Source: Promethearchaeum sp. (lineage in GTDB: Archaea; Asgardarchaeota; Lokiarchaeia; Sigyniarchaeales; Promethearchaeaceae). Taken from it: DNA of 24,000 nt. Below the pieces are notes generated by a model. It did not search any database. It saw nothing but the letters and a program-made list of their open reading frames with translations, and had not been told where the DNA came from. Below are positions 8,999 to 21,085 of the stretch, piece after piece (the first letter of the stretch is position 1; each line of letters opens with the position of its first letter). Position numbers and translations under genes: made by a program. The stretch covers positions 1 through 24,000 of the forward strand of contig JAUWPK010000002.1 of assembly GCA_030611625.1 (NCBI GenBank). Direction: 5' to 3'.

Positions 8999-9760
8999 TT
9001 ATATCTCCCTAATCTTAATTTTCTTCTTTAATGATTGAGAATATGAGAAATTTAAAAGATTTTGATTTCTTAAAATAAATTTACCCCCAATTCCTTTAAA
9101 CCCTTCTATAATCCCCGAAATATTCTTGGGTTTTCCACTTTTTGAATAATTAACCTTAGCTTCCGAAATAGCATGAAGAGTAAAGAGTGGATTTCCTAAA
9201 ACATCCAAAAATCGTTGAGCTTTTTTATCACCAACATCTACTAATCCTTCAAGGAAATATTTTTGGTCTTTAGCTGTAATTTCCTCGCTTAAGGACTCTT
9301 TATCAATTTTGGGAATAATATCGGGAAAATATCCCTTAGATTGCTCTAATTTTGCAATTTCAACAATAACTTTAGCAGTTTCAAAGGCGTCTTTTGTTGG
9401 AATAATAGGAATGTTCATTTTATATGTAGCATATACCAAAGCCCCGTAGATCGAACTTTCCTTAACAAATTTCCTGAATGTTTTTTCTAAGGATTCAATA
9501 ATCAATATTGGAAATTGAAAAACATTCTTTAATTTGGACAGTTGTTGAAAAAACCGTGTATCAAAAATTGAAGAAACAAGATCATCCCCTCTCTTTCGTT
9601 CGATTGCACAGCGCGAAGAAACGATGTAATCGCCGAAATCCAGAGTTTCAATACTAAGGTCGCATTCTAAATTATCAAAAGCACTTCTAATTTCACCTCG
9701 TTCCCTTTCATCTAAAATTATTTTTGGAGATGAAGGTGAATTAGAGATTTTATTGTTCAT
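8999..9760 (-). CDS. Short archaeal XPF/ERCC4-family structure-specific nuclease (nuclease domain plus HhH2), catalytic motif intact
   Basis: The ERCC4 signature FGDYIVSSRCAIERKRGDDLVSSI (GDx(n)ERKxxxD) lies at nt 9581-9634. The C-terminal tandem helix-hairpin-helix reads FLEGLVDVGDKKAQRFLDVLG ... EGFKGIGGKFILRN. There is no helicase domain. Confidence 0.85.
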   Translation of the reverse strand: MNNKISNSPSSPKIILDERERGEIRSAFDNLECDLSIETLDFGDYIVSSRCAIERKRGDDLVSSIFDTRFFQQLSKLKNVFQFPILIIESLEKTFRKFVKESSIYGALVYATYKMNIPIIPTKDAFETAKVIVEIAKLEQSKGYFPDIIPKIDKESLSEEITAKDQKYFLEGLVDVGDKKAQRFLDVLGNPLFTLHAISEAKVNYSKSGKPKNISGIIEGFKGIGGKFILRNQNLLNFSYSQSLKKKIKIREI

Positions 9761-9815
9761 TAAAAAATTGCACCCTAAACATTTATTTACTGTATAATTA
9801 AAATCATTTTTGAGG

Positions 9816-10496
9816 ATGAGTGATAATCTGAATTCGACTAAATTACATGCAATTATTGACGAAGACTCATATGAAAAGTTCCAGAATTTGATAGATCAAT
9901 TGGAAAAACTCGATTTTTATATAGAAAAGAAAGAAATCGGTAAAAATTTCGTCCAAATCCCTCCTAATGGCGGTGTTTTAATCTTAAAATCAAAGAACTT
10001 GGATGGAAAATCTCTTTTGTCAAATATGGACAAAAAAATAAAGGAATTTTCTAATCTAATACCGAATGGTGTAATTATCTTTGAAAATTTCAACAGATTG
10101 GGTGTAAAAAAGAGAGAATTAGTTCAAAAGATATTGTTTAAGCAAATTCTTAACTCAGAATCGACATTTAACGGGATTATCCCCACAAGAAATCCATCAG
10201 AAACTGCATTATGTATAAAAAGCATAGCAAAAAGGGAACAAATTGAAGATCTTCCACCAATATTAAGTAGAATAAAACGAAAATCAAAGTATCTTTCAGA
10301 TTACCAAATTTTTTTTATTGAAGGGTTACTCCAATGTGGAACAAAAAAAGCAAAAGCCCTTCTGAAGGTTTTCGATAGCCCACAGGAGATTATCAATGCA
10401 ATTCTCTATGATCCAGTTAAAATATCAGAAATAAAGGGATTTGGCAAGAAATTTATTGGTATTAATCAAAAACTTCTTCAAAATAATCTAAAATAA
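9816..10496 (+). CDS. ERCC4/XPF paralog with degenerate active site plus HhH2 (ERCC1/Eme1-like non-catalytic partner candidate)
   Basis: It is collinear with the neighbouring XPF: AIIDE vs ILDERE, IPTRNPSETALCIKSIAKREQ vs IPTKDAFETAKVIVEIAKLEQ, and FFIEGLLQCGTKKAKALLKVFDS...IKGFGKKFIGINQ vs the HhH2. The nuclease signature is replaced by GKNF...VLILKSKNLDGKSLLSNM (nt 9939-10010), so ERK becomes LKS and GDY becomes GKN. I prefer ATG 9816 over the track's TTG 9810. Confidence 0.7.
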   Translation: MSDNLNSTKLHAIIDEDSYEKFQNLIDQLEKLDFYIEKKEIGKNFVQIPPNGGVLILKSKNLDGKSLLSNMDKKIKEFSNLIPNGVIIFENFNRLGVKKRELVQKILFKQILNSESTFNGIIPTRNPSETALCIKSIAKREQIEDLPPILSRIKRKSKYLSDYQIFFIEGLLQCGTKKAKALLKVFDSPQEIINAILYDPVKISEIKGFGKKFIGINQKLLQNNLK

Positions 10497-10531: not shown

Positions 10532-10906
10532 ATGCAAGATCCAATTCAGCATTATGAAGTAGGATGTAAATTTTGGATTAAAGGATCAAATGATTTTACT
10601 ATGGGCCCAGGTGATGTCCAATTAATAAAAAAACTAATAGAATTCAATAACCTTACAAAAGCTGCCACAGTTTGCCATTATTCCTATAAATATGCTTGGA
10701 AAAAGATTAAAAATATTTCTGAAAAAACCGGTAAAGCAATCGTCAATAGCCACAGAGGAGGTAAAGGTGGTGGTGGAGAAGTAATGGTTACTTCTTGGGG
10801 GAAACATTTGATTTTTCTTTTTGAAAGTGCTGAAAAACAGCTGAATAAAACAATCAGTGAAATTAATGCTGAATTTACAAAAAACATTTCTGAGAAACAT
10901 TTTTAA
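10532..10906 (+). CDS. ModE N-terminal-domain-like winged-helix transcriptional regulator (no Mop/TOBE domains)
   Basis: GPGDVQLIKKLIEFNNLTKAATVCHYSYKYAWKKIKNISEKTGKAIVNSHRGGKGGGGEVMVTSWG parallels E. coli ModE (SISQGAKDAGISYKSAWDAINEMN...ERATGGKGGGGAVLTRYG). Confidence 0.8.
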   Translation: MQDPIQHYEVGCKFWIKGSNDFTMGPGDVQLIKKLIEFNNLTKAATVCHYSYKYAWKKIKNISEKTGKAIVNSHRGGKGGGGEVMVTSWGKHLIFLFESAEKQLNKTISEINAEFTKNISEKHF

Positions 10907-10960
10907 GAAAGATTTTAACGAAAAAAATTATAAAATATTAATATAGAGGTATTTTTGAAT

Positions 10961-12619
10961 ATGAACAGCGGAGTCACCGACATACACGAACCAAAATCTG
11001 ATGAGGAATATACTGTAATAATTGACATGGGACAAGGTAATACAAAAGTTGGTTTTGCCGGTGATGAGAAGCCACTTATGTTTCCTACCGTCTGTGGAAA
11101 ACCAAAATATCAGCAAATGATGGCAGGGGTTACTGCGAAAGAAATTTACGTTGGCGATGACACAAAAAGAATGAGAGGAGTTCTCAGATTATCCTATCCT
11201 ATAAAGCGTGGGACAGTTATGGATTGGGATAATTATTATGCCATATTAAATCACATATTTTATAATACTCTACGTGTTAAAGATGCAAAAAATTGTAATG
11301 TAATTTATTTAGTTCCTCCCTTAACCCCTCCTGAAACTTATCAATATTTTGCAAGAGTTTTATTTGAAACACATCAAGTTAAGTCCGTTGCAATACTCGA
11401 TACTGCAACAACTGCTATATTTTCTATTGGTGAAACAACGGGACTATCTATTGATATAGGTTGCGGATTGTGCACTATATGTCCGGTAATGAATGGCCGA
11501 ATTTTTGAACCAAGCGTTCAAAAGCTTAATTTGGCAGGTATGGATGTAGAGGATTATTTGGAGAAACTGCTAACACAATACGGAATTTTTAAAAAAAGGG
11601 AGATTATCCAAGATATTAAGGAAAAAACCTTAAAAATTTCTTTAGATCCTAAAAAGGCTTCTCAAGATCCTTCATACAATATGAATTATGTCCTTCCAGA
11701 TGGAGAAAAGTTGGAATTAAGTGCTAATTTTATCATCATGGCAAGTGAAATCATATTTAACCCAATTTTAGTCGGAATCAGTGGAAAAAGCTTGCAAAAT
11801 GCAATAATCGATTCGATTCGTGCTACTGATCGAGCATATTGGCGACAATTATTAAATAAAATTGTTCTTTCAGGAGGAACCTCCTACATAAGTGGATTAA
11901 AGGAGAGATTAGAAGCCGAAATCAAGAAAAATCTATTTGAACTGGGAGAATTACCGCCCTTGGTTGAGGAGAAAGCTAATATTCTTGTACCAGAACCAGT
12001 GAAGGGAATTTTAACACCCAAAGAAAATTTAAAATCTATGATTCAAATTATGGGAAAAGATAGAATTCCGGAAAATTGTTCTAGGTGCGGAGAGTTATTA
12101 GAAAAATCTAGTGAATTTTGTCCATCTTGTGGCGCAAAGATCACTCAAAAACAAATCGAAATAATGGGTGCAACTCTAGAATCATATCCTACAATGTGTT
12201 CTAAGTGTTTCCAAAAATTGGACGGAGTTATTTCCGTCTGTCCTTATTGTAATAATCAGTTAAAACCTATAATCCATGAAGAAAAATTAGATCGTAAAGA
12301 AAAGAAATTAATCAAAAAAACATCCGTTTCTGAAAAAGAATTGAAAGAATTATCATTACAAGTGGCGAGTGAATACGGTGGTTTTGATGAAATTGATGAC
12401 AAAATATCTTCCCCTCTTAACAAGTTAAATATAAACAAACCAAAATCAGATGAAATCATTCAAATTGATTTATATGATGACAGGTATTACGCATCTTTCA
12501 AAGGCGCATCAATTTTAGGGTCTTTACCAAGTTTTAAGAAATTTTTGGTCGATAAAAGCACTTTCGATGCAAACCCTGATTCTGTAAAAGTAGATTTCGA
12601 AAAAATAATAAATCAATGA
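10961..12619 (+). CDS. Actin-family (eukaryote-like actin/ARP) ATPase with an internal insertion of about 170 aa carrying two zinc ribbons
   Basis: It aligns with eukaryotic actin over its length. IIDMGQGNTKVGFAGDEKP is phosphate-1, YVGDD, YPIKRGTVMDWD, LFETHQV, GLSIDIGCGLCTICPV is phosphate-2, LNLAGMDVEDYL, IIQDIKEK, YVLPDGE, and VLSGGTSYISGL is the adenosine motif. The C-terminal YASFKGASILGSLPSFKKFLV matches [21 protein letters not shown]. Between the last two blocks (nt about 11935-12455) lie CSRC-x10-CPSC (12077-12130) and CSKC-x10-CPYC (12197-12250), plus a K/E-rich linker. ATG 10961 has GAGGT about 10 nt upstream, and the track's TTG 10955 is less likely. Confidence 0.9.
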   Translation: MNSGVTDIHEPKSDEEYTVIIDMGQGNTKVGFAGDEKPLMFPTVCGKPKYQQMMAGVTAKEIYVGDDTKRMRGVLRLSYPIKRGTVMDWDNYYAILNHIFYNTLRVKDAKNCNVIYLVPPLTPPETYQYFARVLFETHQVKSVAILDTATTAIFSIGETTGLSIDIGCGLCTICPVMNGRIFEPSVQKLNLAGMDVEDYLEKLLTQYGIFKKREIIQDIKEKTLKISLDPKKASQDPSYNMNYVLPDGEKLELSANFIIMASEIIFNPILVGISGKSLQNAIIDSIRATDRAYWRQLLNKIVLSGGTSYISGLKERLEAEIKKNLFELGELPPLVEEKANILVPEPVKGILTPKENLKSMIQIMGKDRIPENCSRCGELLEKSSEFCPSCGAKITQKQIEIMGATLESYPTMCSKCFQKLDGVISVCPYCNNQLKPIIHEEKLDRKEKKLIKKTSVSEKELKELSLQVASEYGGFDEIDDKISSPLNKLNINKPKSDEIIQIDLYDDRYYASFKGASILGSLPSFKKFLVDKSTFDANPDSVKVDFEKIINQ

Positions 12620-12627
12620 GGTAGTTT

Positions 12628-12680
12628 TTTGAACCACTATTTTTTTAATATTTGAACCACTATTTTTTTTAATATTTGAA
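12628..12680. repeat. Tandem direct repeat (23 and 24 nt, plus a 6-nt partial third copy) in the actin/surface-protein intergenic region, containing duplicated T-run/TATA-like boxes
   Basis: Read directly. TTTGAACCACTATTTTTTTAATA (12628-12650) and TTTGAACCACTATTTTTTTTAATA (12651-12674) are followed by TTTGAA. The second TTTTAATATT (12667-12676) sits about 20-28 nt before ATG 12695, a plausible archaeal TATA position for a leaderless mRNA. Confidence 0.8.
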
Positions 12681-12694
12681 TAGGTTTTAGAAAA

Positions 12695-13858
12695 ATGAAA
12701 CGACATAGTATTATACCTTATTTATTCTTATTGATGTTCATAATATCCTCGGTCTCAATTGATTATTCGGTAGCGACTTCAAGAAAAGATTTGCTTGAAG
12801 AGTTCTGTATCTCAAACCAAACTGAAACCGGTGGTTTTACAGATTATAATAATGGAACAGACGTAATTACAGAATTTACATCTTTAGCAAATTTGTTCAT
12901 TTTGTATGAAATCGATCCAACATTAACAAAAATTGATAAATCCAAGTCAGAATTTTGGTTTATAGACCGATTAGATGATTTTATTACAACAACTACTACC
13001 GATAAAAACATTCCAAATGCTTATTATGCTTTGGAAGGTTCAATTTATTTAAATGCTACATCCAATAATACCGCAACTGTTGATGAATCGATTATAGAGT
13101 TGAATAATCATTACAATGAAACCAGTCACGGATATCATGGAGGAAATTCTCCTATTCCTACATTAAGTAATACCTATTATGCAATCGAATTTCTTTATTT
13201 AGCAAGTAATATTACAACTTCCGCAAATTTAAGTACAATTGAGTCAACAGAAATAGCTACTTTCATATTATCTTGCTGGGATAGCGAAAATAATGCATTT
13301 GCAGGAAGCCCGGGAGGACAAGCGAACCCTATTGATTCATATTTTGCAATTCAAACCTTAATTAGACTTGAAAAATTAGATCTATTTAATTATGGAGAAG
13401 AATTAACCGATTTTATTGATGATTTCTACTGTAATGACCCTGTATTTGAATCCCATTACGGAGGATATTCACATATCCCTAATTCACCTTCGTCCAGCTC
13501 ATTAATGATGACATATTATTGTGTTAGTATACAAAACTTCTTAAATTCTTCAAAAATGAATAATGAAACGACTCTTAGCTGGATCTTGTCCCGTCAAAGC
13601 CCTTATGATCACGGATTTAATGATGTTCCCAGTGTTTCTGGTATTGAATACTCTTCTGCAAAATTATCATATTATGCAGTTAAATCAATTCTGATCTTTG
13701 AAGAAAGCGCTTTTGGAGATAAAAATGCAGATTTAATGAATGAAGAACTCTGGGATTTAAGAACCAGTGGTTGGTTAATTGCTGCAATTGTTGTAGGAAG
13801 CTTAGGATTAGCCGCACTTGCAGGTTATGGTATTTATAGATATAAAAACCGAATTTAG
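12695..13858 (+). CDS. Membrane-anchored extracellular protein with prenyltransferase/terpene-cyclase-like (alpha/alpha toroid) repeats, probable N-glycoprotein
   Basis: It has an N-terminal signal/anchor (IIPYLFLLMFIISSVSI) and a C-terminal TM plus basic tail (WLIAAIVVGSLGLAALAGYGIYRYKNRI). Five or six spaced repeats have the GGF/HGY ... (T/S)YYA form: ETGGFTDY, NAYYALEG, HGYHGGNSPIPTLSNTYYAIEFL, NAFAGSPGGQANPIDSYFAIQTL, HYGGYSHIP...MTYYCV and DHGFNDVP...LSYYAVKSI. There are nine N-x-S/T sequons. Confidence 0.65.
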   Translation: MKRHSIIPYLFLLMFIISSVSIDYSVATSRKDLLEEFCISNQTETGGFTDYNNGTDVITEFTSLANLFILYEIDPTLTKIDKSKSEFWFIDRLDDFITTTTTDKNIPNAYYALEGSIYLNATSNNTATVDESIIELNNHYNETSHGYHGGNSPIPTLSNTYYAIEFLYLASNITTSANLSTIESTEIATFILSCWDSENNAFAGSPGGQANPIDSYFAIQTLIRLEKLDLFNYGEELTDFIDDFYCNDPVFESHYGGYSHIPNSPSSSSLMMTYYCVSIQNFLNSSKMNNETTLSWILSRQSPYDHGFNDVPSVSGIEYSSAKLSYYAVKSILIFEESAFGDKNADLMNEELWDLRTSGWLIAAIVVGSLGLAALAGYGIYRYKNRI

Positions 13859-15353: not shown

Positions 15354-16217
15354 ATGGATCCAATTATTCTCGATGGTCGCTCTTTATCAAAAAAAATCAC
15401 AGATAATTTAAAAGAAAAAATCGAAGTTGCGACGGAAAAGTATGGTCGTCCACCTTGTTTGGCAACTATTCTTGTTGGAGAAGATCCAGCCAGTAAAGTA
15501 TACGTTAACATTAAAAATAAGACTTGTGAAAGAATAGGGATTATTACTATTAAAAAAAATTTTACATTTGATATTAAGATTGACCAATTATTCCAGGAAA
15601 TAAAAAATTTAAATAAGAATCCTAAAGTGGATGGAATTTTAATTCAAATGCCTCTTCCAGAAAAATTACGAAAATATGAATCTAAAGTTATGGCTCTAAT
15701 TTCACCAGAAAAGGACATAGATGGATTCCATCCGAATAGTATCGGATTAAATATGCTTGGAAATGAGAAATACGGCGCATGTACTCCTAAGGGCATGATA
15801 AGATTATTAGAAGAATATGGAATCAACATAGACGGCGAAGAAGTTGTCATTATTAACCGAACTCCTGTAATCGGGAAACCCTTGGCAATGATGTTTATTA
15901 AAAGACATGCTACAGTGACAATTTGTCATAGTCATACTCGAAATTTAGATTTTCACTTAAAACGGGCAGACATTATCGCTGTTGGAGTAGGCCGTATAAA
16001 TTTTGTAACACCAGAAAGGATAAAAAATGGTGCTGTTATCTTGGATGCAGGAATAAACTATAATGAAAATGGTAAATTAGTCGGTGATGTCGATTTTGAA
16101 TCTGTAAAACCAAAATCTAAAGCAATTACACCCGTTCCTGGAGGAATAGGTCCAATGACAATTGCCATGTTGATGGAAAATACATATCTTGGTTATATAA
16201 ATCATGTAAGTAATTAA
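15354..16217 (+). CDS. folD: Bifunctional 5,10-methylene-tetrahydrofolate dehydrogenase / methenyl-THF cyclohydrolase
   Basis: ILDGRSLSKKI...PCLATILVGEDPASKVYVNIKNKTCERIGI, DGILIQMPLP, KDIDGFHP, CTPKG, VVIINRTPVIGKPLAMM, ATVTICHS and PVPGGIGPMTIAML match FolD end to end. Confidence 0.95.
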   Translation: MDPIILDGRSLSKKITDNLKEKIEVATEKYGRPPCLATILVGEDPASKVYVNIKNKTCERIGIITIKKNFTFDIKIDQLFQEIKNLNKNPKVDGILIQMPLPEKLRKYESKVMALISPEKDIDGFHPNSIGLNMLGNEKYGACTPKGMIRLLEEYGINIDGEEVVIINRTPVIGKPLAMMFIKRHATVTICHSHTRNLDFHLKRADIIAVGVGRINFVTPERIKNGAVILDAGINYNENGKLVGDVDFESVKPKSKAITPVPGGIGPMTIAMLMENTYLGYINHVSN

Positions 16218-20008: not shown

Positions 20009-21085
20009 TTAGATATTGCCAAAAACTAAGAATTTCTTGTCGCTCCCAAGAGAGTATACTTGGAAAGTTCTTCCTTTTTTGGTTTCACAATTCAAAACTA
20101 GTACAGGAAAGAGATAAATTGGCAATCTTATATTAATATCTTCCTTTTTTGATGATTGCTTCCACTCTTTACTCGCTTCCTTCACAGTCTTTCCAATTTC
20201 TTTAGAATAATAACCTAAACTGGGTTCAATAAATTTCTGATCTAAATCCTTTTCAGGTTTACGGATTATAATAGCTTCCACTTGTTCAATTGCGTCATGA
20301 ATTTCTTTGCCCATTTCCTTTTCTAATCCCGATAATTTTATCGATGATAAGAGAACAGGGTCAGATTCGTGCTCTTTTTTAAACGGAACAGGTTTAATTT
20401 GATATGTGAAAAAGATTCCATACCCTTTGCAGTCAGAACACTGAATTATCCCCTGCCCATCGCAATATTTACAAGATACTTTCCCAGTTCCACCACATTT
20501 AGCACATGTAATTTTACCTGAAGCCATGCAAACATTGCATTTTACTTCAATATTTTTCTTAGTTTTCTCTTGTTTTTCATTAATTACTGTAATCTCGAGA
20601 TTTACTTTCCCAGTTCCCTCACAAGCTTTACATTTTGTCTTTTCTACATTTCCGCCGCAATCAGGGCAAGGAATGAGTTTAGATCCTTCACATTTTTTAC
20701 AAGAAACCCCTCCTAGACCATTGCAGCGACTACAATTTTGCTTTTGGAGTGTTTTGTAAAATGGTACCTCTGAAGAGCCTTTCCAGTCAGATTTAATAGG
20801 ATAACCGTTAATATTGTAGAACTTTTCTTTTTCAACATCCCTGACTGATGCTTTTTCCGTTTTAATTTTTTCTTTCGATGGTTCAATATCGATTGACTTC
20901 TCTAAATAAATTACAATTGCTTTTTCTACACTTTTTACAAATTCAGCAGCAGTAATATTATCCAATTTAAACACAGCACCTTTAACGCCATAATGCTTTT
21001 CTAATTTCTGTGCTTTTGCGTTTTTTTGTTTCCAATTCTCCCAGATAACATCTGGATTGGCCGATTTTATTGAAATATTTCCCAT
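20009..21085 (-). CDS. Protein with eight DnaJ-type CxxC(xGxG) zinc-finger motifs and no J domain, flanked by unrecognised N- and C-terminal domains
   Basis: Residues 118-219 (nt 20429-20734) contain CSRCNGLG, CKKCEGS, CPDCGG, CKACEGTG, CNVCMASG, CAKCGGTG, CKYCDGQG and CSDCKGYG. They fall into two clusters of four separated by a K/E-rich beta-like linker. There is no HPD motif anywhere. Confidence 0.8.
   Translation of the reverse strand: MGNISIKSANPDVIWENWKQKNAKAQKLEKHYGVKGAVFKLDNITAAEFVKSVEKAIVIYLEKSIDIEPSKEKIKTEKASVRDVEKEKFYNINGYPIKSDWKGSSEVPFYKTLQKQNCSRCNGLGGVSCKKCEGSKLIPCPDCGGNVEKTKCKACEGTGKVNLEITVINEKQEKTKKNIEVKCNVCMASGKITCAKCGGTGKVSCKYCDGQGIIQCSDCKGYGIFFTYQIKPVPFKKEHESDPVLLSSIKLSGLEKEMGKEIHDAIEQVEAIIIRKPEKDLDQKFIEPSLGYYSKEIGKTVKEASKEWKQSSKKEDINIRLPIYLFPVLVLNCETKKGRTFQVYSLGSDKKFLVFGNI

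What the first reader, a model, noticed from the sequence alone, without database searches (positions are those of the whole stretch)
10961..12619. Eukaryote-like actin-fold protein with two zinc ribbons inserted into subdomain 3
Seen in sequence: the ORF is collinear with eukaryotic actin, including both phosphate loops, the adenosine motif (VLSGGTSYISGL) and the C-terminal [8 protein letters not shown]-type block (FKGASILGSL). About 170 extra residues (nt about 11935-12455) sit between the blocks that correspond to actin ...EITALAP and KIKIIAPPERKY. The insert contains two CxxC-x10-CPxC units (12077-12130 and 12197-12250) and a Lys/Glu-rich acidic linker. Established knowledge: Asgard archaea encode lokiactins and ARP-like proteins, and eukaryotic Arps differ from actin mainly by surface insertions. 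The actin 322-325 loop, next to this insertion point, is a longitudinal filament contact in the Holmes-type F-actin models. Inference: this could be an ARP-like, possibly non-polymerising or capping actin paralog whose zinc ribbons dock onto nucleic acid or a protein partner. I do not recall an actin or ARP with an embedded tandem zinc ribbon.
Basis: partly seen in the sequence, partly recalled or inferred. Interest (0 to 1): 0.85.

Follow-up and report, generated by a model that had tools for sequence, protein, structure and literature searches.

The report
Lokiarchaeal actin paralog with inserted zinc ribbons
This is a real, strongly conserved gene of Lokiarchaeia (Asgard archaea) encoding an actin-like protein with a two-zinc-ribbon module spliced into a loop that ordinary actin uses to stack into filaments. 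Its sequences are already in public databases, but the insert and its function appear never to have been described.

Summary
ORF 10961-12619 (+) encodes a 552-aa protein that scores 235 bits against Pfam Actin and is collinear with eukaryotic actin at 33% identity. A 170-aa insert (aa 330-499) replaces the actin 322-326 loop. The insert carries two CxxC-x10-CPxC zinc ribbons (Pfam DZR) at exactly the stated coordinates.

It is not a chimera. The same architecture occurs in the closed genomes of Promethearchaeum syntrophicum MK-D1 and Lokiarchaeum ossiferum, and relatives occur in 146 GTDB species genomes. In the 80 loci fetched the gene always sits in the same syntenic block.

All eight Cys are invariant in the 74 two-ribbon family members aligned with the query. 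A small subclade, including L. ossiferum, has lost ribbon 2.

The family is monophyletic and far from lokiactin and actin. It keeps the nucleotide pocket and the barbed-end hydrophobic cleft. It has lost catalytic Q137 and H161 and the actin-like lateral contacts.

The L. ossiferum ortholog (UYP44711.1) was already placed among 'ARPs' in a published tree. I found no paper mentioning the zinc-ribbon insert.

Most likely it is an ARP-like adaptor or terminal subunit whose tethered ribbons dock a protein partner. That mechanism is inferred, not shown. I rate it a new variant of a known kind, of moderate to high interest.

The parts
10961..12619 (+). Complete CDS of the actin-zinc-ribbon protein (552 aa plus stop). 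The ATG at 10961 is preferred over the TTG at 10955.
   Evidence: P0001 100% identical, 552 aa; orthologs start MNSG; GAGGT lies 10 nt upstream
10961..11947 (+). Actin core, N-terminal part (aa 1-329): subdomains 1, 2, 4 and most of 3. It includes phosphate-1 (D22, K29), phosphate-2 (D165, G167, G169), the adenosine motif (G305, G306) and the family-specific exit motif L-P/F-Q/E-L-G (aa 325-329).
   Evidence: AF2 pLDDT above 90
11948..12457 (+). 170-aa insert (aa 330-499) replacing the actin loop 322-326.
   Evidence: alignment to beta-actin; (gap between actin 318 and 328)
11948..12037 (+). Linker 1 (aa 330-359): Pro/Glu/Lys-rich, variable in length (15-45 aa across the family), predicted disordered.
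   Evidence: (pLDDT below 50 at 339-358)
12077..12133 (+). Zinc ribbon 1, CSRC-x10-CPSCG (aa 373-391). Its four Cys are invariant in 81 of 81 family members.
12152..12166 (+). Conserved beta-strand Q-I-x-I after ribbon 1 (aa 398-402; I399 86%, I401 80%).
12197..12253 (+). Zinc ribbon 2, CSKC-x10-CPYCN (aa 413-431). Its Cys are invariant in all two-ribbon members. The whole ribbon is deleted in the L. ossiferum subclade.
12284..12322 (+). Basic helix KLDRKEKKLIKKT (aa 442-454), conserved only in the query's clade. It contains an LKKT-like motif that is not supported as WH2.
12365..12376 (+). Conserved acidic-aromatic motif A-x-E-[YF] (aa 469-472; E471 90%), followed by a variable acidic linker 2 (aa 476-498).
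12458..12616 (+). Actin core, C-terminal part (aa 500-552), equivalent to actin 327-375 and including FKGASILGSL.
10532..10906 (+). Context: upstream 124-aa ModE-N-terminal-like winged-helix protein on the same strand. It is conserved upstream in 72 of 80 loci.
12695..13858 (+). Context: downstream 387-aa protein with a signal peptide, a prenyltransferase alpha-alpha-toroid domain and a C-terminal TM anchor. It is conserved immediately downstream in 79 of 80 loci.
15354..16217 (+). Context: FolD, part of the same conserved same-strand gene string (75 of 80 loci).

Best explanation
Identity, which is essentially shown. This is the Promethearchaeum-type ortholog of a vertically inherited actin-family paralog that, on cultured anchors and shared synteny, appears restricted to Lokiarchaeia. 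It is one of the Asgard 'ARP' or 'asgardactin' groups. Its actin fold is intact, and a self-folding module of two Cys4 zinc ribbons hangs on two flexible linkers from the barbed-end face of subdomain 3, at the actin 322-325 loop.

Mechanism, which is inferred. The core binds ATP but is a poor or non-canonical hydrolase, because Q137 is S/T and H161 is W/T. It does not build a canonical two-stranded filament by itself. Instead it uses its conserved hydrophobic cleft and its pointed-end elements (the D-loop Met44 and the P243-D-G loop) to engage a partner, most plausibly lokiactin. The tethered zinc-ribbon module docks a second protein. Because the insert leaves from the face that the next subunit must cover, the protein would act as a terminal or adaptor subunit (capping, anchoring or seeding) rather than as bulk polymer.
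For: Real and conserved gene: present in the closed genomes of MK-D1 and L. ossiferum and in 146 GTDB species genomes. There are 170 database homologs. The family is monophyletic in 100 of 100 NJ bootstraps. The gene always lies in the same syntenic block.

Fold: AF2 gives pLDDT above 90 for the core and TM 0.87-0.91 to actins. The ribbons reach pLDDT 80-90 both in the full-length and the insert-only models, and the linkers fall below 50.

Zinc ligands: eight Cys are invariant in the 74 two-ribbon members aligned with the query. The ribbons are better conserved than the linkers, with pairwise identity 0.37-0.42 against 0.18-0.22.

Nucleotide site: D11, K18, G156, G158, K213, E214, G301 and G302 are kept. 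Q137 is never Q. H161 is H in only 10 of 81 sequences.

Surfaces: the cleft (p=0.002), residues 61-65 and the nucleotide pocket (p=0.006) are significantly more conserved than the core average. Lateral contacts, the plug and residues 283-294 are not, and they are 17-38% identical to actin. M44 is kept in 80 of 81 sequences and PDG243-245 in 81 of 81.

Protein-docking rather than nucleic-acid ribbons: net charges are -1.8 (ribbon 1) and -4.6 (whole insert). There is an archaeal precedent in H. volcanii CdpC, whose zinc ribbon binds FtsZ1.

Abundance: the L. ossiferum ortholog is transcribed several-fold below lokiactin, as expected for a sub-stoichiometric factor.
Against: No experiment exists on any family member. 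The D-loop and the hydrophobic plug keep actin-like length, so self-polymerisation is not excluded. The long linkers could let the insert swing away from the longitudinal contact, so capping does not follow of necessity. I could not inspect model coordinates or PAE, so the position of the module relative to the core is unknown (pTM 0.69). No partner is identified. The conserved neighbours lie in a roughly 10-kb block that is syntenic as a whole, so adjacency is weak evidence. Loss of ribbon 2 in one subclade shows that the second ribbon is dispensable.
Confidence: 0.4

Rival explanations
1. It is a second, self-polymerising cytoskeletal filament. The protein forms its own actin-like polymer, and the zinc-ribbon modules project from the filament surface as built-in cargo or membrane-protein binding sites. 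This would resemble an actin with its adaptor fused in.
For: The D-loop has the same length and M44 is kept in 80 of 81 sequences. PDG243-245 is invariant. The cleft residues are conserved, and the plug FxPxLxG has the same length. Flexible 15-45-aa and longer linkers could route the module out of the interface. Apart from two 3-4-aa deletions there are no other large indels relative to actin.
Against: The insertion sits at a longitudinal contact, the 322-325 loop. Lateral-contact residues, 283-294 and the C-terminus are not actin-like and are not specially conserved. Q137 and H161 are lost. Transcript levels are far below lokiactin in L. ossiferum. In that study the filaments were attributed to lokiactin by antibody labelling (immunogold, immunofluorescence).
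Confidence: 0.25
2. It is a nucleic-acid-associated ARP, functionally analogous to nuclear Arps. The actin fold acts as a nucleotide-controlled switch in a DNA repair or chromatin complex, and the ribbons bind DNA or RNA.
For: Neighbours include an ERCC4/XPF nuclease, a Hef-like HhH protein and a ModE-like wHTH protein. Zinc ribbons often bind nucleic acids, which is established knowledge. The query clade has a Lys-rich helix at aa 442-454.
Against: The ribbons and the insert are on average acidic. The nuclease genes are divergently transcribed, and the whole block, including FolD and a GTPase, is syntenic, so the link is weak. The basic helix is absent from the main clade. The insert model has no significant structural match to a nucleic-acid-binding module: the best Foldseek E-value is 0.2.
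Confidence: 0.12
3. It is an artefact: an assembly chimera or a mis-called fusion of an actin gene with a zinc-ribbon gene.
For: None was found.
Against: The same collinear architecture occurs in two closed genomes from cultures (CP042905.2, CP104013.1) and in all 80 loci fetched; relatives were detected in 146 GTDB species genomes in all. It also occurs in independent NCBI, ENA, JGI and Logan assemblies. The actin C-terminal block resumes in frame after the insert.
Confidence: 0.01

Closest known systems
Lokiactin and eukaryotic conventional actin (Pfam PF00022)
   Same: The fold is the same (TM 0.87-0.91) and all five actin sequence blocks are collinear. The phosphate loops, the adenosine motif, the D-loop length with Met44, the hydrophobic cleft and the PDG243-245 loop are all present.
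   Different: Identity to beta-actin is only 33%, whereas lokiactin is reported at 58% to muscle actin (PMC12050087). Q137 is S/T, H161 is W/T and H73 is R. Lateral contacts are not conserved. There is a 170-aa zinc-ribbon insert at loop 322-326.
Asgard 'ARPs' / 'asgardactin' clades (Rodrigues-Oliveira et al. 2022, PMC9834061; Da Cunha et al. 2022, PMC8850707)
   Same: The L. ossiferum ortholog UYP44711.1 lies in the same 90% cluster as P0032. It is one of the three non-lokiactin homologues that the paper places with Asgard and eukaryotic ARPs and measured by RT-qPCR.
   Different: Neither paper mentions a zinc ribbon. Da Cunha et al. contains neither 'zinc' nor 'insertion'; Rodrigues-Oliveira et al. 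did not surface in the zinc-ribbon or zinc searches, and its two uses of 'insertion' that I saw do not concern this protein. The domain architecture, its conservation and its position at a filament contact are described here.
Eukaryotic actin-related proteins (Arp1-10; e.g. Arp2/3, nuclear Arp4/Arp8)
   Same: These are actin-fold paralogs at about 30-45% identity to actin. They differ mainly by surface insertions and act as non-bulk, adaptor, nucleating or terminal subunits, which is established knowledge.
   Different: Orthology to any Arp class was not tested here. No eukaryotic Arp known to me carries zinc ribbons. The insertion point and the module are unique to this family.
DZR double zinc ribbon (PF12773) and archaeal CPxCG zinc-ribbon proteins such as H. 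volcanii CdpC
   Same: There are two tandem Cys4 ribbons with CPxCG knuckles. In CdpC a zinc ribbon binds a cytoskeletal polymer (FtsZ1), and Cys mutations abolish that binding (bioRxiv 10.64898/2026.07.16.738847).
   Different: Here the ribbons are embedded inside an actin fold rather than forming a stand-alone or membrane-anchored protein. Homology to CdpC was not tested, and only a generic zinc-ribbon resemblance was found.

Membership tests
Actin family (Pfam PF00022 / actin-like ATPase fold) | HMM score above the curated cut-off | tested here: met
   235.2 bits against a cut-off of 27, E=1.3e-69
Actin family (Pfam PF00022 / actin-like ATPase fold) | Phosphate-1, phosphate-2 and adenosine motifs (D11, K18, D154, G156, G158, G301, G302) | tested here: met
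   D22, K29, G167, G169, G305 and G306 are invariant in 81 of 81 sequences. D154 is E or D in all 81.
Actin family (Pfam PF00022 / actin-like ATPase fold) | Four-subdomain actin fold | tested here: met
   AF2 core pLDDT above 90. Foldseek to actins gives E~1e-33 and TMt 0.87-0.91.
Conventional actin / lokiactin (filament-forming orthologs) | High identity to eukaryotic actin (lokiactin about 58%) | tested here: not met
   33% identity to beta-actin. The family forms a separate long-branch clade in 100 of 100 bootstraps.
Conventional actin / lokiactin (filament-forming orthologs) | Catalytic Q137 and H161 | tested here: not met
   Q137 is S in 57, T in 18 and A in 6 sequences. H161 is W in 47, T in 15 and H in 10.
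Conventional actin / lokiactin (filament-forming orthologs) | Actin-like longitudinal and lateral filament contacts, with an uninterrupted 322-325 loop | tested here: inconclusive
   The cleft, M44 and PDG are kept. Residues 283-294, the lateral set and the C-terminus are not. The 322-325 loop is interrupted by 170 aa. Polymerisation itself cannot be tested here.
Eukaryotic Arp classes (Arp1-Arp10) | Phylogenetic nesting within a named Arp class | not tested
DZR double zinc ribbon (PF12773) | HMM score above the cut-off, plus two Cys4 units | tested here: met
   34.3 bits against 27.3, covering aa 373-431 and the full profile 1-45. Eight Cys are invariant in two-ribbon members.
DZR double zinc ribbon (PF12773) | Zinc actually bound | not testable with these tools
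   This needs metal analysis of purified protein.
WH2 / thymosin-beta actin-binding motif (PF02205) | Amphipathic helix plus LKKT/V with WH2 spacing; HMM match | tested here: not met
   The KK[LI][LI]KK[TV] motif is conserved in the query clade. There was no WH2 hit at E<=10 for 7 segments, and the spacing of the hydrophobic residues differs.

The most novel reading that the evidence does not exclude
The protein is a single-polypeptide filament-end factor of the lokiactin cytoskeleton. Its pointed-end face docks on a lokiactin barbed end, or templates a new filament. Its zinc-ribbon module, emerging from the barbed-end face, anchors that end to a membrane or surface-protein complex, or to another filament. 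This would be a prokaryotic solution to nucleation, capping or anchoring that is independent of Arp2/3, formins and capping protein, and that operates at protrusion tips or branch points in Lokiarchaeia.
Probability: 0.15. Interest if true: 0.85.

Novelty: new variant of a known kind. Interest (0 to 1): 0.56.

Why it matters
[quoted passage not shown] How those filaments are nucleated, capped or anchored is unknown, and the 'ARP' paralogs are uncharacterised. This paralog occurs in every fetched locus of what appears to be Lokiarchaeia, including both cultured anchors. It lies in a fixed genomic position and carries an invariant metal-binding docking module exactly at a filament contact. That makes it a concrete candidate regulator or adaptor, testable in MK-D1 and L. 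ossiferum. It also shows that decoration of actin paralogs by insertion, the way eukaryotic Arps diversified, happened independently in archaea. Finally, the current NCBI product name, 'zinc ribbon domain-containing protein', hides the actin nature of the protein.

Tried and rejected
1. Assembly chimera: rejected.
2. WH2-like reading of the conserved KKLIKKT segment: there was no Pfam WH2 hit for 7 clade members at E<=10 and the spacing is wrong, so it remains only an unexplained clade-specific motif.
3. Insert-only AF2 model plus Foldseek against the PDB: only generic zinc-knuckle resemblances (PolD, Nop10, aIF2-gamma, RanBP2/NZF fingers, ArnA), with best E=0.2. No functional lead came from it.
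5. Naming the non-family sequences in my tree: three PDB searches returned nothing because my thresholds were too strict. The two successful searches hit only actins and 'HC1 actin'. Placement relative to Arp1-10 is therefore not resolved here.
6. Gene neighbourhood as functional evidence: wHTH, prenyltransferase-toroid protein and FolD are adjacent in 72-79 of 80 loci. However, the whole roughly 10-kb block, including unrelated housekeeping genes, is syntenic, so I discounted it.
7. NCBIfam has no model for the family. It gave only weak sub-threshold hits to MamK, syringactin and crenactin.
8. Ten literature searches, plus reading four papers, found no description of the insert.
Full report
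**Observation.** The window has an ORF at 10955..12619 on the + strand. Starting from the ATG at 10961 it encodes 552 aa. That product is identical to a database protein (P0001, NCBI, on a 27.9-kb contig), and its orthologs also begin MNSG. Pfam gives Actin at E=1.3e-69 (235 bits, cut-off 27). It gives DZR, the double zinc ribbon, at E=2.7e-8 (34.3 bits, cut-off 27.3) over aa 373-431.

Against PDB sequences the best hits are actins: 'HC1 actin' 9wc4 and yeast actin 1yag, both at E about 1e-60. Query 16-322 aligns to actin 5-318, and query 501-541 aligns to actin 328-368. I aligned the family to human beta-actin. The alignment gives 33% identity over 364 columns. It places a 170-aa insert (aa 330-499, nt 11948-12457) between actin M325 and I327.

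The eight Cys are C373/376/387/390 and C413/416/427/430.

**Is it real, and how widespread is it?** The protein search returned 170 homologs. All 120 listed carry precomputed Pfam Actin, and nearly all also a zinc-ribbon domain. They run from 82% down to 32% identity and come from NCBI, ENA, JGI and Logan assemblies. Of these, 112 have two ribbons at the same position, seven have one, and one is a fragment.

A scan of GTDB species genomes found 146 genomes encoding a relative. The 80 best loci include the closed genomes of Promethearchaeum syntrophicum MK-D1 (77% identity), Ca. Lokiarchaeum ossiferum and Ca. Harpocratesius repetitus. Seventy-eight of the 80 have both ribbons, while L. ossiferum and one MAG have one. 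An assembly chimera is therefore excluded.

Some MAGs are labelled Hod-, Odin-, Thor- or Hermodarchaeota, and one is labelled as a 'Nanopelagicaceae bacterium'. Most of their copies are 82-94% identical (one about 74%) to those of generically labelled Promethearchaeota MAGs, and they share the same synteny. I read these labels as noise rather than as evidence of a wider distribution.

In an exhaustive search of 1.84 billion cluster representatives, only about a dozen 50%-identity clusters belong to the family. The next best hits are ordinary or Asgard-type actins at about 200 bits and 33-38% identity. A neighbour-joining tree of 21 family members, beta-actin and 33 other actin-like representatives recovers the family as a clade in 100 of 100 bootstraps, on a long stem. 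In that tree the L. ossiferum-type one-ribbon proteins nest inside two-ribbon proteins, so ribbon 2 was lost secondarily.

**Conservation of the insert.** In an 81-sequence alignment the four Cys of ribbon 1 are invariant. Those of ribbon 2 are present in 93% of sequences and are missing only where the whole ribbon is deleted. In the 74 two-ribbon members aligned with the query, all eight Cys are invariant.

Mean pairwise identity is 0.54 for the N-terminal core, 0.37 for ribbon 1 and 0.42 for ribbon 2. It falls to 0.22 and 0.18 for the two linkers, whose lengths vary between 15-45 and 5-47 residues. Further conserved elements are:

- the exit motif LPQLG-x-IP;
- a Q-I-x-I strand after ribbon 1;
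- an A-x-E-[FY] motif, with E471 at 90%, before the acidic return linker.

The query's clade additionally has a conserved basic helix, KLxRKEKK[LI][LI]KKT.

**Structure.** AlphaFold2 with the family alignment gives mean pLDDT 82. The actin core is above 90 and the ribbons are at 80-88. They have short strands at 361-363, 405-408 and 437-440. Residues 339-358 and 473-492 fall below 50. Foldseek matches actins at E about 1e-33 with target TM 0.87-0.91.

The insert modelled alone (aa 355-475) keeps pLDDT 81-90 in the ribbons, so it appears to fold autonomously. It has no significant PDB neighbour: the best E is 0.2, with only generic zinc knuckles. I could not inspect coordinates or PAE, so where the module sits relative to the core remains unknown.

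**What the core has kept and what it has lost.**

- Kept: D11, K18, G156, G158, K213, E214, G301 and G302.
- Kept: the D-loop at actin length with M44 in 80 of 81 sequences, and R62 in 81 of 81.
- Kept: the barbed-end cleft residues, namely Y143F, G146, T148, G168, I345, L346, L349 and F352.
- Kept: P243-D-G in 81 of 81 sequences, and the plug length.
- Lost or changed: Q137 is S, T or A and never Q. H161 is W or T, and H in only 10 of 81. H73 is always R. K336 is Q or Y. F375 is S.

A permutation test compared within-family conservation with the core average of 0.63. It is significantly high for the cleft (0.82, p=0.002), residues 61-65 (0.99) and the nucleotide pocket (0.75, p=0.006). It is not high for residues 283-294, the plug, the lateral contacts or the C-terminus, and those regions are only 16-38% identical to actin.

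According to established F-actin models (Holmes type and later), loop 322-325 of subdomain 3 contacts residues 243-245 of subdomain 4 in the next subunit toward the barbed end. The insert therefore leaves from the barbed-end face.

**Genomic context.** The gene lies in a same-strand string. The order is a ModE-N-like wHTH, then (in the main clade only) a CBS-pair protein, then the actin-zinc-ribbon gene. After it come a signal-peptide, prenyltransferase-toroid, C-terminal-TM protein and then FolD. In the main clade a 152-aa unknown protein and a DRG/TGS GTPase follow.

The individual neighbours are conserved in 72-79 of 80 loci. A divergently transcribed ERCC4 nuclease and an Rce1-like protease lie upstream. 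Because the whole roughly 10-kb block is syntenic and functionally mixed, I read it as vertical inheritance of a core gene and not as an operon-level functional link.

The 75-nt spacer after the stop codon holds a duplicated T-rich 23/24-mer. A TATA-like TTATAAAA and a GAGGT sequence precede the ATG. Both are compatible with an independent transcription unit.

**Relation to what is known.** UYP44711.1 of L. ossiferum is in the same 90% cluster as P0032. Rodrigues-Oliveira et al. [quoted passage not shown] They found lokiactin transcripts several-fold higher. Da Cunha et al. (PMC8850707) divide 'asgardactins' into five clades, and that paper never uses the words 'zinc' or 'insertion'.

Ten full-text searches used combinations of Asgard, lokiactin, ARP, zinc ribbon, zinc finger, double zinc ribbon and the accession numbers. 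I also checked a 2025 preprint on Asgard motility. None describes the insert. NCBIfam has no model for the family, and NCBI names the MK-D1 protein merely 'zinc ribbon domain-containing protein'. The sequences and their automatic domain hits are therefore public, and the clade is loosely known as an Asgard ARP. The architecture itself appears undescribed, so I rate it a new variant of a known kind.

**Mechanism.** The following points are shown:

- an intact actin fold with a conserved nucleotide pocket and barbed-end cleft;
- loss of the two residues that activate the hydrolytic water in actin;
- a conserved, autonomously folding double Cys4 module on flexible tethers at a longitudinal contact site;
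- low expression relative to lokiactin in one species.

From these I infer the preferred model, at about 0.35-0.4. The protein is an ARP-like adaptor or terminal subunit. It engages lokiactin, or another partner, through its cleft and pointed-end elements, and it docks a second protein through the ribbons.

I favour protein docking over nucleic-acid docking for two reasons. Ribbon 1 averages a net charge of -1.8 and the whole insert -4.6. There is also an archaeal precedent in H. volcanii CdpC, where a zinc ribbon binds FtsZ1 in a Cys-dependent manner.

The rivals are a self-polymerising second filament with surface ribbons (about 0.25), a nucleic-acid-linked ARP (about 0.12) and an artefact (about 0.01). 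The remaining probability goes to functions I cannot foresee.

**What led nowhere.** The LKKT-like motif is not a detectable WH2. The fold search of the insert was uninformative. Two fold libraries were unavailable. Placement relative to Arp1-10 could not be computed for lack of reference sequences.

Noticed in passing
window 12628-12680: A tandem duplication of a T-rich 23/24-mer (TTTGAACCACTATTTTTTT(T)AATA, twice) lies in the 75-nt spacer between the actin-zinc-ribbon stop codon and the next gene. The oligo-T runs look like a duplicated archaeal terminator.
   Followed up: partly
window 8999-9760 (-) and 9810-10496 (+): A divergent gene pair. One gene is an ERCC4/XPF-type nuclease (Pfam 5.4e-27). 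The other is a 228-aa Hef/XPF-C-terminal-like HhH protein with no recognisable nuclease domain. Together they may form a catalytic and non-catalytic XPF-type heterodimer. The pair is conserved in the query's clade (L001-L007).
   Followed up: partly
window 12695-13858 (+): A 387-aa protein with a signal peptide, a prenyltransferase alpha-alpha-toroid domain and a C-terminal TM anchor, followed by a tail of about 6 residues. It sits directly downstream of the actin gene in 79 of 80 loci. It is a candidate surface protein of unknown function.
   Followed up: partly
L021, L028, L030, L032, L037, L038, L045, L057, L064, L074, L076, L080: The GenBank organism labels (Hod-, Odin-, Thor- and Hermodarchaeota, and one 'Nanopelagicaceae bacterium') conflict with the content. 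Their actin-zinc-ribbon genes are mostly 82-94% identical (L064 about 74%) to those of Promethearchaeota-labelled MAGs and have identical synteny. The labels or the binning are probably wrong.
   Followed up: partly
L009 11827-13501 (and most main-clade loci): After FolD the conserved string continues with a 152-aa protein that has no Pfam hit, followed by a DRG-type GTPase with a TGS domain. A CBS-pair protein lies between the wHTH gene and the actin gene in the main clade but is absent from the query's clade.
   Followed up: partly
window 12284-12322 (aa 442-454): A clade-specific, strongly conserved basic segment, K-L-x-R-K-E-K-K-[LI]-[LI]-K-K-[TV], resembles the LKKT/V of WH2 and thymosin motifs. 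It gives no WH2 HMM hit and remains unexplained.
   Followed up: yes
window 20009-21085 (-): A 358-aa protein with DnaJ-type CXXCXGXG zinc-finger repeats but no J domain detected. Homologs occur in 31 of the related loci.
   Followed up: no
P0133 (486 aa) and P0130 (461-aa fragment), from the representative search: These are variants of the family. P0133 has a single ribbon and branches at the base of the family in the NJ tree, so it is open whether one ribbon is the ancestral state. P0130 has a much longer Lys/Glu/Pro-rich linker 1.
   Followed up: no
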